From Agathobacter sp. (lineage in GTDB: Bacteria > Bacillota > Clostridia > Lachnospirales > Lachnospiraceae): DNA of 64,000 bases. Below the pieces are notes generated by a model that worked only from the letters and a program-made list of their open reading frames with translations, was not told where the DNA came from and did no database searches. Positions 2,682 through 49,798 of the stretch are shown here, piece after piece (within the stretch, counting starts at the first letter, position 1; each line of letters opens with the position of its first letter). The position numbers and the translations under genes were made by a program. The stretch covers positions 11,229 through 75,228 of the forward strand of contig JAZUGV010000034.1 of NCBI GenBank assembly GCA_045641385.1, in the 5' to 3' direction.

Positions 2682-3443
2682 CTACTCTACAAAGTTTTTG
2701 ATAAAAGATCTTCTGTGAATTGGACATGGTCCAAGTTCTTTTAATGCTTTAATGTGATCTGCTGAGCCATAGCCTTTATTGGATGCAAAGCCATAGCCAG
2801 GATAAATACTGTCGTACTCGACCATCAGTCGGTCTCTGGTGACCTTTGCAATAATGCTTGCCGCTCCAATGGAAATACTCTTTGCATCTCCCTTGATAAT
2901 TGGTACCTGCTTGATTGGCACCTCTGGGATTGTGACTGCATCATTTAATAGCAAATCAGGAAAAACGGAAAGCTTACCAATTGCCTGTCGCATTGCCTCA
3001 TAGGTGGCCTGAAGAATATTGATTTCATCAATGCGTTCTGGCGAATTCACTCCGACAGCATAGGCAACTGCCTTCTCGCAGATTTCATCATATAATTCTT
3101 CTCTCTTTGCCTCTGAAAGCTTTTTGGAATCATTGATGTACAAAATATCACAATCCTTTGGCAAAATAACAGCTCCGGTCATCACAGGCCCAGCCAAAGG
3201 CCCTCGGCCTACCTCATCAATGCCACAGATTAACTCATAATCAGAATATTTCTTTTCAAAAAATTTTAATGCTTCTATACGCTCAAGTTCTGCATGAAAT
3301 TTGTCCATACGTTTTCTTGCAGAATCAACCAGCTTTTTCACGCCCTCGCGCTCATCCGACTGATAGTTCTCAATGAAAGCCATCAGTTCTCTGTCGCTTG
3401 TATTTTTCAGAGCCTCTTTGATTGCCCCTATCTTTTCTTCCAT
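2682..3443 (-). CDS. rnhB: Ribonuclease HII
   Basis: GIDEVGRGPLAGPV, DSKKLS, KGDAKS, AASIIAKVTRD, HRRSF motifs. Confidence 0.97.
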   Translation of the reverse strand: MEEKIGAIKEALKNTSDRELMAFIENYQSDEREGVKKLVDSARKRMDKFHAELERIEALKFFEKKYSDYELICGIDEVGRGPLAGPVMTGAVILPKDCDILYINDSKKLSEAKREELYDEICEKAVAYAVGVNSPERIDEINILQATYEAMRQAIGKLSVFPDLLLNDAVTIPEVPIKQVPIIKGDAKSISIGAASIIAKVTRDRLMVEYDSIYPGYGFASNKGYGSADHIKALKELGPCPIHRRSFIKNFVE

Positions 3444-3457
3444 CGTATCTATAACCC

Positions 3458-4309
3458 TTATGATTTATTGTTTGGAGCCTCTAAGGAAATTCTTCCAAGC
3501 TTTCCGGAACGGAACTCGTCCATCAGCACAGAGGCTGCCTTTGCATAATCTAATTCTCCGCCATTTTTCAGGAAATTGCGATTCCTTGCAATTTCAATCA
3601 GAATGTCAGCTTCCTTTTGTTCTTCCTCCACCTCATAGCGTGCCTTTAAAACACCAGGGTAAGAGTTCTTTAGGAAGGTAATAAGTGCCAGAGAAAGCTC
3701 ATCAATATTTAAGATTTCGTCATTGATGGAGCCAACCAGTGCCAGGCGAAGTCCCACCTCCTGGTCTTCAAACTTTGGCCAGAGAATTCCTGGAGTATCT
3801 AAAAGCTCAACGTTTTTATTCAGACGAATCCACTGCTTTCCCTTTGTGACACCAGGCTTGTTTCCTGTCTTCGCGCAGGCTTTTCCCGCAAAGGAATTGA
3901 TAAAGGTGCTCTTGCCAACATTAGGAATGCCTACTACCATGGCGCGGATAGGACGGTTCTTGATACCGCGCTTTCTGTCGCGCTCAATCTTTTCCTTGCA
4001 GGCCTCCATAATGACATTATGGACGGTATTCATGGCATTTTTGCTACGCGCATCCAGACAGACAACAGAATACCCCTTATCCTTGAAAAAAGCGGTCCAC
4101 TCTTCGGTTCTTCTCTGGTCGGCCAAATCAAATTTATTCATCAAAATGAGACGAAACTTGTTCTTTCCAAGCTCGTCGATATCCGGATTACGGCTGGACT
4201 GTGGCAGGCGTGCATCCACAAGCTCGATGACCAGATCGATGAGCTTGATGTCCTCCTGCATTTGTCGTTTTGCTTTGGTCATATGACCTGGATACCACTG
4301 AAAATTCAT
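3458..4309 (-). CDS. rbgA: Ribosome biogenesis GTPase RbgA/YlqF
   Basis: QWYPGHM N-terminus. Circularly permuted G motifs NKFD, GIPNVGKS, DTPG. Confidence 0.97.
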   Translation of the reverse strand: MNFQWYPGHMTKAKRQMQEDIKLIDLVIELVDARLPQSSRNPDIDELGKNKFRLILMNKFDLADQRRTEEWTAFFKDKGYSVVCLDARSKNAMNTVHNVIMEACKEKIERDRKRGIKNRPIRAMVVGIPNVGKSTFINSFAGKACAKTGNKPGVTKGKQWIRLNKNVELLDTPGILWPKFEDQEVGLRLALVGSINDEILNIDELSLALITFLKNSYPGVLKARYEVEEEQKEADILIEIARNRNFLKNGGELDYAKAASVLMDEFRSGKLGRISLEAPNNKS

Positions 4310-46563: not shown

Positions 46564-47454
46564 ATGAATACAGCAAAAAAATTACTTATCATCATTCCAC
46601 TTGCAATCGCAACCGTCTATGTATTAGGGCTAAGCTTTCGAGTGTTCGCGATTGCTTCCGACCGCAGTCACTTAAGACAGGTCAATATTAATTCGACCAA
46701 CGATTATGTAATCAACACCGGTGATACTTCAGACAATACGACAGCTGCAAACGACACTCCTGGAAACAGTTCTTCTACCAATAGTAAGCGAACAGCAGCC
46801 ACTACAAAACAGACCACAAAAACCGCCGAAAGCACCTCAACGGTCTATAGCGGTAGCAATCCAGACTGGACAAATGTGCGCTACGACTGGACCAGTTCTA
46901 AGGGAACTCACAATTTATATATCAGCCTTAACCTTGACCGCAATGCCTATAACTACTATTGCAGTTACAAGAACCGTCCATCCACCCCAAGTCAGTTAAG
47001 CGTCTGTGTACAGGAAGCATATAATAAACAGCTGGTTGAAGAGCTGGTCAAATGCTTCAGACAGATTCAGTCAGACTGTGGCTACAGCGACGGCGAATTA
47101 GCTTATGAAGTAATCTACTTCGTGCAGAATTGCATCACCTATCAGAAGGATATTGATGGTACTGGCGAAAGAGAACATTATAAATTCCCAATCGAAACCA
47201 TCTTCTCTAAGCGCGGAGACTGCGAGGATGTATCGATTTTAATGTCAGCCCTGTTATCTGAACTCGGATACGGAAATGTATTCCTCACCTATACCGACCA
47301 TGTAATGGTTGGCATAAAGGGGTCTTCCTTATCAGGAACCTACTACAACTACAATGGCACAAAATATTACACTTTGGAATGCACGAGCGTTTGCCAGGTT
47401 GGTTTTGCTGGCGACTATGCTAACAAGAGCGCAAAAATTTACTACCCATACTAA
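46564..47454 (+). CDS. Membrane-anchored/secreted transglutaminase-like cysteine protease-fold protein
   Basis: N-terminal TM/signal, Thr/Ser-rich linker, FPIET..GDCED, DHVMVGI, YYTLECT. ATG 46564 after GGAGG. Confidence 0.72.
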   Translation: MNTAKKLLIIIPLAIATVYVLGLSFRVFAIASDRSHLRQVNINSTNDYVINTGDTSDNTTAANDTPGNSSSTNSKRTAATTKQTTKTAESTSTVYSGSNPDWTNVRYDWTSSKGTHNLYISLNLDRNAYNYYCSYKNRPSTPSQLSVCVQEAYNKQLVEELVKCFRQIQSDCGYSDGELAYEVIYFVQNCITYQKDIDGTGEREHYKFPIETIFSKRGDCEDVSILMSALLSELGYGNVFLTYTDHVMVGIKGSSLSGTYYNYNGTKYYTLECTSVCQVGFAGDYANKSAKIYYPY

Positions 47455-47537
47455 TTATTTCAGTTTCATTGATATACCCACCATATTGCACTTTATAAGA
47501 AATTGTTCCAATTTCCACTAAAGTGAAAAGACGAAAC

Positions 47538-47568
47538 AAAAAGGTCAGCTACACGGCTGACCTTTTTG
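47538..47568. terminator. Bidirectional terminator between convergent genes
   Basis: AAAAAGGTCAGC-TACACG-GCTGACCTTTTT. Confidence 0.85.
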
Positions 47569-47588
47569 CTTTCAAAATTCAACTAAGA

Positions 47589-47981
47589 TTAAAATGTAAT
47601 TGTCTCAGGCTCCTTGGTGAAGGAAGAAATTGTTGCAACTGCATTCTTGAAATAGTATACAACTGTATTTCCATCATCTGCCTTGTAAGCATTCTGAAGG
47701 CTTGGATATGCATCAAGCATAGACTGACGAGCCTCAATACGATCATCCTCAACCAGCTCTCCTGCAACACGAATCCACTCTCCGTTTTTGAATGCACAAA
47801 CCTCTACCTTTGGATTGGCAACAATCTGCTTTGAAACATCCTTAACCTTACCTGTCTGAATGTAAAGCTTTCCCTCAAAGATATGAGCAGTACCGAAAGG
47901 ACGGACACGAGGCTGATCCTGCTCAACGGTTGCAAGATAATATACTCCTGCCTCTTTTAAAAACTGACATACTTTTTCCAT
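47589..47981 (-). CDS. Pyridoxamine 5'-phosphate oxidase-like FMN-binding protein
   Basis: YYLATVE..QPRVRPFG, KQIVANPKVE. Confidence 0.85.
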   Translation of the reverse strand: MEKVCQFLKEAGVYYLATVEQDQPRVRPFGTAHIFEGKLYIQTGKVKDVSKQIVANPKVEVCAFKNGEWIRVAGELVEDDRIEARQSMLDAYPSLQNAYKADDGNTVVYYFKNAVATISSFTKEPETITF

Positions 47982-48083
47982 AGTGTTATACCTCCTAATA
48001 TCATATTTCCTAATATCATCTCTTGCATCACAAGAAACACCTTTATTATACCCATTTTCCTAGCTTATGAAAAGAACTATAGC

Positions 48084-48643
48084 AAAAAGACCAGATATAT
48101 AATCTGGGCTTTTAATTTGAAATCTGTATCAGCCCACTGCGGCCATACTCTCTGGTTCCGCGATACTCGTTGCTCAAAACCACAACAACAGATTTATCTT
48201 CTATAGAAAATTACGTTTTACAAATTTTCCGTGCCGATTTTTCAAAAGTTTCCAGTGGTCTCTGCCTTAGGGAACCGCCCTTTCGTTAGAGTAAAGTGTG
48301 CAGTCCTTAGTGCCTGTGAAGCCTGAGGCACCGCATACGCGCCGGATGCGCGTATAGACATGCATAAGCCAGGGAAGGCGGTTCAGGTCGTGCGGTGCAC
48401 CATCAGGCTTCACAGACACATAGAACTGGTAGCTTTACGGCCACAAAGGCGTTCCTAAGGCAGAGGCCACCGGAAACTAAGAAAAAGCGCATTCCCTAAA
48501 TTGGAACGTAATTTTCTATAGAAGATAAATCCCGCCTTGTGTGATATTTAAGCAGCCGTATCCTTTGCGTGGAAACAGAGTGTATGGCTGCAGTGGACTC
48601 TGAAAGAGTTCAAAAAAAGACCAGGTACACACCTGGTCTTTTG
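48084..48643. repeat. ~560-bp imperfect palindrome (long inverted repeat) bounded by two related terminator-like hairpins; non-coding
   Basis: Nested complementary blocks centred near 48363: 48134-48148/48582-48596, 48191-48217/48505-48531 (27/27), 48247-48271/48454-48478, 48310-48326/48403-48419, 48328-48335/48391-48398. Confidence 0.92.
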
Positions 48644-48655
48644 CATTTGATTTTC

Positions 48656-49639
48656 TTATCTAGGAACCACTTTGGTCACGAAATCAGCCAGCCCATCCTC
48701 TAATGCTTCCTCCAAATCATCCTGGAATGAATACTTATATACGTTGACATAAGATGTTCCCAGCTCTGATTCGTTTGGACTGTTTTGACACCACTCATAG
48801 GTATCTGTGTTTGCATTGTACTGATAATAGTTGATTACGCTATCCTCGCCATGCAGATTTGGCTCATTTTTGATCCAGTTGGTATCCAGGAAAAATACAG
48901 AAGTGCTGTCATCCATATATTCCACATAAATATCATCTGCTGCAATATCATTGACATCATAGATTCTATAATCCCAGTCTGCTGAGGCAGGAGAAGCCAG
49001 CAGACAGATAATCAGTTCCTCGCGTTCATCATGGTCGATATCCATAATGATGAAGTAGTTTTCCGGCTTTTTTAGGCTGTTATCTACATTTCCATAAATT
49101 GGGAACGTGCCGTTTGTTCGCATCTCCTCAATTTTGCCAAGATAATATCTGCGGCGATCCAAGGACTCCTGGTATTTTGCATCATAGCGTTCCTGGTAGT
49201 CGTCGACTTCTTCCACTGGTGGCTCTCCCTCAACTATCTCCGACGCTGGATTCTGCACTTTTGGGACATTTTTGTTTTGCATCTTTACAAATCCTGCAAT
49301 CGAAACAACAGAAAGAATCAAAACCACTCCACAGGCAATCCCAATACCTGCAAGCGCACCTACCGACAATCCTGTTTTTGCAGCCAGTGAGCCTGCCTTA
49401 GCTGCCCCCTGTGCCAAGCCTTTTCCTGCAGCGCCACTCTGTGCCTGGGCTGCTACTCCCTGTGGCTGAGTCGCATTCTGCGTTCCTCCAATGCTTGGGC
49501 CAGCACTGCTGCCCTGTGGCTGTGCCACGTTTTGTGCCCCTCCAATCCCAGAGCCTGTTACAGGGCCCACAGCGGTCCCGCATTTAATGCAAAACTTTGT
49601 GCCAGACTGTAGGTTTGTTCCGCAATTTTTACAAAACAT
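48656..49639 (-). CDS. Zinc-ribbon domain single-pass membrane protein
   Basis: MFCKNCG...FCIKCG, Gly/Ala/Gln linker, TM, acidic ectodomain with DIDHDEREEL. ATG 49639 after GGAGG. Confidence 0.85.
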   Translation of the reverse strand: MFCKNCGTNLQSGTKFCIKCGTAVGPVTGSGIGGAQNVAQPQGSSAGPSIGGTQNATQPQGVAAQAQSGAAGKGLAQGAAKAGSLAAKTGLSVGALAGIGIACGVVLILSVVSIAGFVKMQNKNVPKVQNPASEIVEGEPPVEEVDDYQERYDAKYQESLDRRRYYLGKIEEMRTNGTFPIYGNVDNSLKKPENYFIIMDIDHDEREELIICLLASPASADWDYRIYDVNDIAADDIYVEYMDDSTSVFFLDTNWIKNEPNLHGEDSVINYYQYNANTDTYEWCQNSPNESELGTSYVNVYKYSFQDDLEEALEDGLADFVTKVVPR

Positions 49640-49798
49640 AAAAATACCTCCAAATATTTTATCCAAAACTATGATGTCCTAAGGAAATGTCCAAAACATC
49701 CCTTTTATAACAGAAGGATACCCTAAATCCTTCATCGGTTTTAGAAAATTCTATTTTTTGATATTTTATCATTGAATTTGCTTTTTGCCTATCTGCAG

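What the first reader, a model, noticed from the sequence alone, without database searches (positions are those of the whole stretch)
48084..48643. ~560-bp non-coding palindromic element predicted to fold into a giant rod-like hairpin, capped by twin terminator-like hairpins
Seen: the gap between the PNPOx-like and zinc-ribbon genes has no ORF in the track and is self-complementary about one axis (~48363). Paired blocks are 48134-48148/48582-48596 (14/15), 48191-48217/48505-48531 (27/27), 48247-48271/48454-48478 (23/25), 48310-48326/48403-48419 (16/17) and 48328-48335/48391-48398. The strong blocks start 57, 56 and 63 nt apart, separated by weaker segments that would form internal loops. Many arm differences are transitions (G-U compatible) but are split between strands, so the functional strand is unclear. 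The apex (48336-48390) is itself structured: ATACGCGC-CGGAT-GCGCGTAT plus GAC..GCC-AGGGAA-GGC..GTC. The two ends are related hairpins, AAAAAGACCAG..CTGGGCTTTT and AAAAAGACCAG..CTGGTCTTTT. Established: long palindromes are normally unstable in bacterial chromosomes. Inference: persistence with patchy conservation suggests selection on structure. Options are an undescribed long ncRNA or RNase III substrate, a REPIN/MITE-like non-autonomous element mobilised as folded ssDNA, or a DNA copy of a viroid-like rod RNA. It matches no RNA family I recognise.
Basis: partly seen in the sequence, partly recalled or inferred. Interest (0 to 1): 0.85.

Follow-up and report, generated by a model that had tools for sequence, protein, structure and literature searches.

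The report
Long-armed TwoAYGGAY repeat with twin terminators
This 600-base fold-back sequence is real and is one worn copy of a repeat found about 21 times in this genome; its centre is the catalogued but unexplained TwoAYGGAY RNA motif, and it likely spreads as a small parasitic DNA element that brings its own predicted transcription stops.

Summary
The rod is real (fold z -19 to -21). It is neither unique nor unclassified. About 21 copies lie in this genome. The apex is Rfam RF01731 TwoAYGGAY: 13 sister copies pass the curated cut-off, while this decayed copy scores 36.3 against a cut-off of 43 bits. The family occurs in 66 of 151 genus genomes, at 1 to at least 17 copies.

New here is the architecture: arms of about 250 bases, with stems that vary between copies but stay paired (29 of 51 core pairs covary), fixed internal loops, and terminator-like ends that belong to the element. 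14 of 18 copies sit between convergent genes. Three orthologous gaps in relatives lack the element. Arms show signs of copying onto each other, sometimes taking in a neighbouring gene's last codons, so covariation does not prove an RNA. The arms show no strand bias. I found no mobilising enzyme, and no RNA run was listed.

Verdict: a long-armed variant of a known repeat-like motif, probably a non-autonomous mobile element; moderate interest.

The parts
48057..48666 (.). Whole fold-back unit, including the outermost copy-specific inverted segments (about 610 bases)
48057..48072 (+). Degenerate inverted copy of 48651-48666, which includes the last 11 bases of the zinc-ribbon gene (inferred capture of host sequence)
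   Evidence: 12/16 match, (I13)
48084..48113 (.). Left terminator-like end hairpin, similar to the end hairpins of several sister copies
48114..48293 (+). Left arm: variable stems separated by internal loops conserved across the family
48191..48217 (+).
48294..48435 (+). TwoAYGGAY core (Rfam RF01731), 36.3 bits, E 1.4e-4, below the 43-bit cut-off
   Evidence: sister copies
48335..48355 (+). Apex hairpin 1, loop CGGAT (GGA kept in 17 of 18 copies)
48357..48389 (+). Apex hairpin 2, loop AGGGAA at 48371-48376 (ANGGAN in 18 of 18 copies)
48436..48611 (+). Right arm, complementary to the left arm except at the conserved loops
48612..48642 (.). Right terminator-like end hairpin; on the - strand it is followed by a T run and would stop the zinc-ribbon gene's transcript
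47589..47981 (-). Flanking host gene, PNPOx_N family (not part of the element)
48656..49666 (-). Flanking host gene, zinc-ribbon protein (not part of the element)

Best explanation
It is one slightly decayed copy of a dispersed, non-coding fold-back repeat built around a TwoAYGGAY core, which likely spreads as a non-autonomous mobile element, moved by an unidentified enzyme that probably recognises the folded single strand. Shown: about 21 copies, the Rfam match, orthologous gaps without the element, a strong preference for gaps between convergent genes, paired but copy-specific stems, and conserved loops. Inferred: (1) it lands at gene 3' ends and is tolerated because its own two end hairpins would terminate the neighbouring transcripts; (2) the arms are kept complementary largely by one arm being copied onto the other during replication (template switching or gene conversion), which sometimes also copies flanking host DNA; (3) the internal loops and the two GGA loops survive that copying because only copies that keep them are recognised and spread, or are useful; (4) when transcribed, the GGA loops may bind CsrA, as proposed in print but untested.
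For: Copies: 17 full, 1 apex-deleted, 4 contig-end halves, 1 one-arm fragment. Family: 13 G000 matches over the RF01731 cut-off; RF01731 in 66 of 151 genus genomes at 1 to at least 17 copies, whereas CsrA is in 138 of 157. No shared neighbour gene; flanks are unrelated host genes such as purB, groEL, citrate synthase, upp, murE. Gaps without the element: citrate synthase/PH-domain gene in G070 is 43 bases with one terminator against about 580 here; groEL/degV lacks it in 5 of 5 relatives; DUF6553/LiaF lacks it in G076. Convergent context: 14 of 18 copies against 153 of 1132 gaps of 30 bases or more (binomial p 1e-9). End hairpins are shared among copies and unlike the host terminators at the citrate synthase and purB sites; of 25 pattern hits, 19 are at elements. 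Arm copying: end hairpins match better inverted than direct in 15 of 16 copies, loops included; 60 of 138 compensated changes in the 14 closest copy pairs are transversions (summed; pairs not independent); in G007 a right-arm module is replaced by the mirror of the left type, and left arms hold right-type modules; at G007 L082 the right arm holds a non-coding inverted copy of about the last 12 codons of the left gene; coding ends of the 14 convergent flanks resemble each other more than cross-locus pairs (permutation p 2e-4) and more than 136 element-free convergent gaps (p 0.005 and 0.0002).
Against: No mobilising enzyme found: no Y1_Tnp, RVT_1, DUF772 or IS110 in G000 (the genome is 85% complete), and high copy number is not associated with Y1_Tnp (15 of 22), IS1182 (8 of 22) or IS110 (14 of 22). 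No target-site duplication and no conserved terminal repeat. Copies are at most 90% alike, so no recent burst is visible here. The empty gaps come from other species (dnaE fragment 82-89% identical), so loss in relatives cannot be excluded and no insertion point is mapped. Some sites persist across species (upstream of dnaE in 5 of 30 genomes), which also fits host function. Upp/dapdh and the L017 and L019 loci were not syntenic, and G070 has an extra gene at the L018 locus, so these gave no test. The window copy is one of the 4 non-convergent copies, and its end hairpins score 15 direct against 14 inverted.
Confidence: 0.62

Rival explanations
1. A host regulatory RNA family: each copy is transcribed and binds CsrA dimers through its two GGA loops (a Firmicute CsrB-like sponge or 3'-end regulator), and the long stem protects or processes the RNA.
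For: GGA loops kept in 17 of 18 and 18 of 18 copies while the stems vary; RF01731 is in clan CL00106 and PMC4333381 proposes CsrA binding (passages); CsrA is in G000 and in 138 of 157 genus genomes; some sites are shared between species.
Against: Absent from 85 of 151 genus genomes although CsrA is nearly universal. Only two sites per 600 bases. End hairpins would block read-through from both sides, and the promoter scan found no site pointing into the rod beyond chance level (2 found, 1.5 expected). No strand bias in the arms. Strict AYGGAY holds in only 2 of 18 and 4 of 18 loops.
Confidence: 0.2
2. A REPIN in the strict sense, cut and pasted by a REP-associated tyrosine transposase (RAYT).
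For: Extragenic hairpin with compensatory changes, as for REPINs (PMC3116915 passages); inverted doublets and tandem arrays occur in relatives; the preprint links Pseudomonas TwoAYGGAY to REP arrays.
Against: No Y1_Tnp in G000 or in 7 of 22 high-copy genomes, including complete G068. RAYT-like loci in G007, G076 and G175 are not flanked by the element; 0 of 29 Y1 loci carry the apex pattern (the pattern finds only 18 of 30 known loci). The most conserved part is a single asymmetric apex, not two inverted REPs.
Confidence: 0.1
3. A DNA copy of a viroid-like or otherwise self-replicating rod RNA, integrated by reverse transcription.
For: Rod fold with alternating helices and conserved loops; high stem divergence between copies.
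Against: No ribozyme or viroid family hit; no RVT_1 in 3 of 5 element-rich genomes, G000 included; no permuted or tandem full-length copies in G000; ends are terminators and copy-specific host sequence; 0 hits in viral contigs with two patterns.
Confidence: 0.04
4. A decaying local inverted duplication, or an assembly artefact.
For: This copy departs from the family consensus at 22 conserved positions. All 4 differences shared by two other runs restore pairing or consensus. No contig spans the whole rod.
Against: About 21 dispersed copies with the same asymmetric loops; homologous cores in 15 other genomes; the left arm is recovered in two other studies.
Confidence: 0.02

Closest known systems
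TwoAYGGAY RNA motif, Rfam RF01731 (Weinberg et al. 2010, PMC2864571: table row and supplement passages seen; PMC4333381: passages seen; bioRxiv 10.64898/2026.09.22.753630: abstract and passages seen)
   Same: Two GGA-loop hairpins on a common basal stem; multi-copy, intergenic, variable copy number; Clostridia. The preprint already says that Bacillota members have an elongated basal stem and suggests mobile-element-like expansion and Csr binding.
   Different: Rods here are about 600-650 bases (up to about 1.5 kb in G007) against a 168-position model, and about 240-460 bases for most self-inverted matches at 37 genus loci. They have several extra conserved internal loops and paired terminator-like ends. 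Loops are relaxed to ANGGAN/NGGAN. The preprint's supplements (figs S28-S29, Supplementary Text) and Weinberg's Additional file 1 could not be read and may already describe long Bacillota stems.
REPINs mobilised by RAYT (PMC3116915, passages seen)
   Same: Non-coding extragenic hairpin repeats with compensatory changes; doublets and tandem arrays.
   Different: Five to ten times longer; the conserved part is a central asymmetric apex; no associated RAYT found.
Prokaryotic MITEs and palindromic repeats (ERIC, Correia, RUP, bcr1; names recalled; review PMC3184786 seen as a search listing only)
   Same: Non-autonomous, dispersed, fold-back, intergenic.
   Different: No conserved terminal inverted repeat or target-site duplication found; the ends are copy-specific.
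Template-switch correction of imperfect inverted repeats (PMC5941160 passages; PMC8794818 abstract and outline)
   Same: Arm homogenisation, multi-base compensated changes, reverse-complement copies of nearby sequence.
   Different: Here it acts on arms hundreds of bases long that nevertheless keep fixed asymmetric loops.

Membership tests
TwoAYGGAY (RF01731) | Score at or above the Rfam gathering cut-off (43 bits) | tested here: inconclusive
   Window copy 36.3 bits, E 1.4e-4 (missed in the wider scan); 13 paralogous copies 45.8-82.1 bits. Member by paralogy, below the cut-off itself.
TwoAYGGAY (RF01731) | Two sequential hairpins on a common basal stem | tested here: met
   Consensus fold and covariation: 29 of 51 pairs, 0 of 500 shuffles reach it, slid controls 6-10 pairs
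TwoAYGGAY (RF01731) | AYGGAY in both terminal loops | tested here: not met
   Window loops are CGGAT and AGGGAA; strict AYGGAY in 2 of 18 and 4 of 18 copies; GGA core in 17 of 18 and 18 of 18. Many relatives have the strict motif.
TwoAYGGAY (RF01731) | Expressed as RNA and binds CsrA (proposed, not established) | not testable with these tools
   Needs RNA data or a binding assay
REPIN/RAYT | Two inverted REP units forming the hairpin | tested here: not met
   Single asymmetric apex in G000 copies; doublets only in some relatives
REPIN/RAYT | Cognate RAYT gene flanked by the repeat | tested here: not met
   (G000 is 85% complete)
MITE of a DDE insertion sequence (for example IS1182) | Conserved terminal inverted repeats shared with an IS | tested here: not met
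   Outer ends are copy-specific; no DUF772 in G000, nor in complete high-copy genomes G068 and G069. IS ends were not aligned systematically.
MITE of a DDE insertion sequence (for example IS1182) | Direct target-site duplication | tested here: inconclusive
   End segments are inverted rather than direct in 15 of 16 copies; later arm copying could have erased a direct duplication; none seen at G069's sharp ends
Mobile element (generic) | Orthologous sites without the element | tested here: met
   3 sites, in other species only
Viroid-like or retroviroid RNA | Self-cleaving ribozyme, circular or multimeric forms | tested here: not met
   No ribozyme family hit; RNA circles not testable here

The most novel reading that the evidence does not exclude
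Bacillota TwoAYGGAY rods are a class of transposase-free or host-enzyme-driven mobile elements that replicate through a folded single strand, install their own twin terminators so that insertion at gene ends is harmless, grow and self-repair by copying one arm onto the other (rewriting neighbouring genes' last codons), and use host CsrA bound at the apex to control or enable their spread.
Probability: 0.15. Interest if true: 0.8.

Novelty: new variant of a known kind. Interest (0 to 1): 0.4.

Why it matters
TwoAYGGAY has been catalogued since 2010 without a function, and both a CsrA-sponge role and mobility have only been suggested. This family adds gaps without the element in relatives, element-borne terminators, and signs that arm covariation can come from DNA copying rather than selection on RNA. 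That last point is a caution for covariation-based ncRNA discovery in palindromic repeats. Long, loop-punctuated rods with many natural variants give ready substrates for testing CsrA binding, RNase III cleavage and mobility. The core family itself is known, so the surprise is moderate.

Tried and rejected
The first Rfam scan of 47400-48800 listed nothing relevant; TwoAYGGAY appeared only on sister copies and on a 191-base scan. Plain DNA searches found no homologue in 60 relatives and one real match among 156 genus genomes; the covariance model was needed (15 of 150; 1 of 150 across the class). Pattern scans: viral contigs 0 and 0; genome contigs 3 hits, none confirmed by the model; metagenomes 2 hits, one weak apex match.

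Partner enzymes: no recurring neighbour; Y1_Tnp, RVT_1, DUF772 and IS110 absent from G000 or uncorrelated. The Fisher tables were counted by hand; copy numbers there are capped at 17 and six genus genomes were outside the RNA draw.

My first idea that the end hairpins are captured host terminators was dropped after the comparison (the groEL site is ambiguous). My note that inverted arms enter both genes at G007 L082 was corrected: only the left gene's end is copied. The wobble count over-extended into flanks and was replaced; the 38 against 19 excess in consensus helices is probably due mostly to one near-invariant U.G pair. The apex pattern failed, so loop counts come. Sequencing runs: no RNA holder listed; no joint showing an empty site. 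Synteny tests at upp, L017 and L019 were uninformative. Paper searches found no description of twin-terminator rods; the library is partial.

Full report
Observation. The gap between the PNPOx-like gene (47589-47981, -) and the zinc-ribbon gene (48656-49666, -) holds the stated inverted blocks at the stated identities, around an axis at 48361-48365. Both strands fold as one rod, z -18.8 and -20.6 as RNA and z -17.0 as DNA. Symmetry reaches about 48057-48666, into the last 11 bases of the right gene. Contigs from two other runs in two studies contain this copy's left arm at about 97% identity, and loose ends identical to stems of two other copies. An artefact is therefore unlikely, although no contig spans the rod.

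It is a repeat family. BLAST and profile searches of the host genome (2.5 Mb, 85% complete) give 17 full copies, one apex-deleted copy, four contig-end halves (two elements) and one single-arm fragment, about 21 elements. Copies are at most 90% alike. Alignment shows variable stems, paired within each copy, alternating with conserved asymmetric loops, a conserved three-way apex and terminator-like hairpins at both ends. In the core, 29 of 51 pairs change on both sides; 0 of 500 shuffles reach this and slid controls give 6-10. The window copy is among the more worn: 22 departures at well-conserved columns (range 2-49), and the four differences shared by two other runs all restore pairing or consensus. 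Open frames inside the element are not conserved.

The core is TwoAYGGAY. My first Rfam scan missed it. An earlier AI note (e1-7390398) named the motif, and I tested it. 13 G000 copies pass the RF01731 cut-off, relatives score up to 134 bits, and the window copy scores 36.3 bits, E 1.4e-4, at 48294-48435 +. Loop 2 is ANGGAN in 18 of 18 copies and loop 1 keeps GGA in 17 of 18, but strict AYGGAY is rare here. In print, the motif is listed for Clostridiales (PMC2864571, table row) and proposed to bind CsrA (PMC4333381, passages). A 2026 preprint describes it as variable in copy number, mobile-element-like, and with an elongated basal stem in Bacillota (10.64898/2026.09.22.753630, passages). That preprint's supplements and Weinberg's Additional file 1 were not readable and may bear on novelty.

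Evidence for mobility. Neighbours are unrelated host genes with no recurring partner. 14 of 18 copies sit between convergent genes against 153 of 1132 gaps genome-wide with a crude ORF caller. Three orthologous gaps lack the element: citrate synthase/PH in G070 (43 bases, one terminator), groEL/degV in 5 of 5 relatives and DUF6553/LiaF in G076. Three other loci were not syntenic. The end hairpins resemble each other across copies and not the host terminators at the citrate synthase and purB sites, so they are probably carried by the element. Against simple recent transposition: no near-identical burst here, no target duplication, and a site upstream of dnaE occupied in 5 of 30 genomes by differing elements in both orientations.

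How the arms stay paired. Several signs point to copying between arms. End hairpins match better inverted than direct in 15 of 16 copies, loops included; the window copy is the exception. Sixty of 138 compensated changes among the 14 closest pairs are transversions, which cannot pass through G.U (summed; pairs not independent). There is no strand bias in wobble types (121 against 117). In G007, rods up to about 1.5 kb carry nested repeats of an arm module, some converted to the opposite arm's type. At one G007 locus the far arm holds a non-coding inverted copy of about 12 terminal codons of the near gene. In G000, coding ends of the convergent flanks are more alike in inverted orientation than cross-locus pairs (p 2e-4) or 136 element-free gaps (p 0.005, 0.0002). 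In the window copy the 27/27 block lacks a loop that its closest sisters keep. Template switching is a documented source of such patterns (PMC5941160 passages; PMC8794818 abstract). That the loops persist in most copies implies selection on them, at the level of the element or of the host; this step is inference.

The mobiliser is unknown. G000 has no Y1_Tnp, RVT_1, DUF772 or IS110 match. Among 22 well-assembled high-copy genomes, 15 have Y1_Tnp, 8 IS1182 and 14 IS110, no different from the rest (Fisher p 0.31, 1.0, 0.21). Complete G068 lacks both Y1_Tnp and DUF772. None of 68 transposase loci carries the apex pattern (the pattern finds 18 of 30 known loci). Earlier AI notes proposing direct terminator duplication and an IS1182 link (e1-1222135, e1-7030202) concern other genomes and were not borne out here.

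Verdict. A real, decayed member of a long-armed, terminator-capped variant of the TwoAYGGAY repeat, most likely a non-autonomous mobile element (0.62); a CsrA-binding host RNA is the main rival (0.2). The family is known and its mobility already suspected. What is added is the architecture, the gaps without the element and the evidence for arm-to-arm copying. Interest 0.4.

Noticed in passing
G069, L182-L189 (about 2740-3770): Divergent TwoAYGGAY doublets of about 0.93-1.03 kb with sharp, mutually inverted ends and no evident target duplication; 86-95% identical between copies, so a better system for mapping mobility.
   Followed up: partly
G007, L080, L082, L084, L085: Rods of 1.0-1.5 kb with two to three nested copies of a 170-base arm module and long copy-specific outer arms.
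   Followed up: partly
L083:5100-5704 (G007:C55 end): Tandem array of truncated apex units with a period of about 212 bases next to a full rod, running off the contig end.
   Followed up: no
Upstream of dnaE: L197, L198, L199, L213, L219: TwoAYGGAY elements of different sequence and orientation in 5 of 30 genomes; a hot spot or an old shared site.
   Followed up: partly
G000:C38:2700-2930 (L030) and G000:C19:838-982: An apex-deleted copy and a one-arm fragment of the element.
   Followed up: partly
G000:C63:21884-27307: A 1807-codon ORF bracketed by two closely related copies (89% alike) in opposite orientation; protein not annotated.
   Followed up: no
L100 (G076:C26), L102 (G175:C31), L273:760-930: RAYT-like Y1 transposase genes flanked by other short repeats, and an unrelated palindromic repeat in the G076 gap where G000 has the rod.
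   Followed up: partly
L038:1046-1104; L345, L346 (G183): Weak apex match in a metagenome contig, and two core matches in another family of the class.
   Followed up: no
window 47534-47571: Ordinary bidirectional terminator-like hairpin between the transglutaminase-like gene and the PNPOx-like gene.
   Followed up: no
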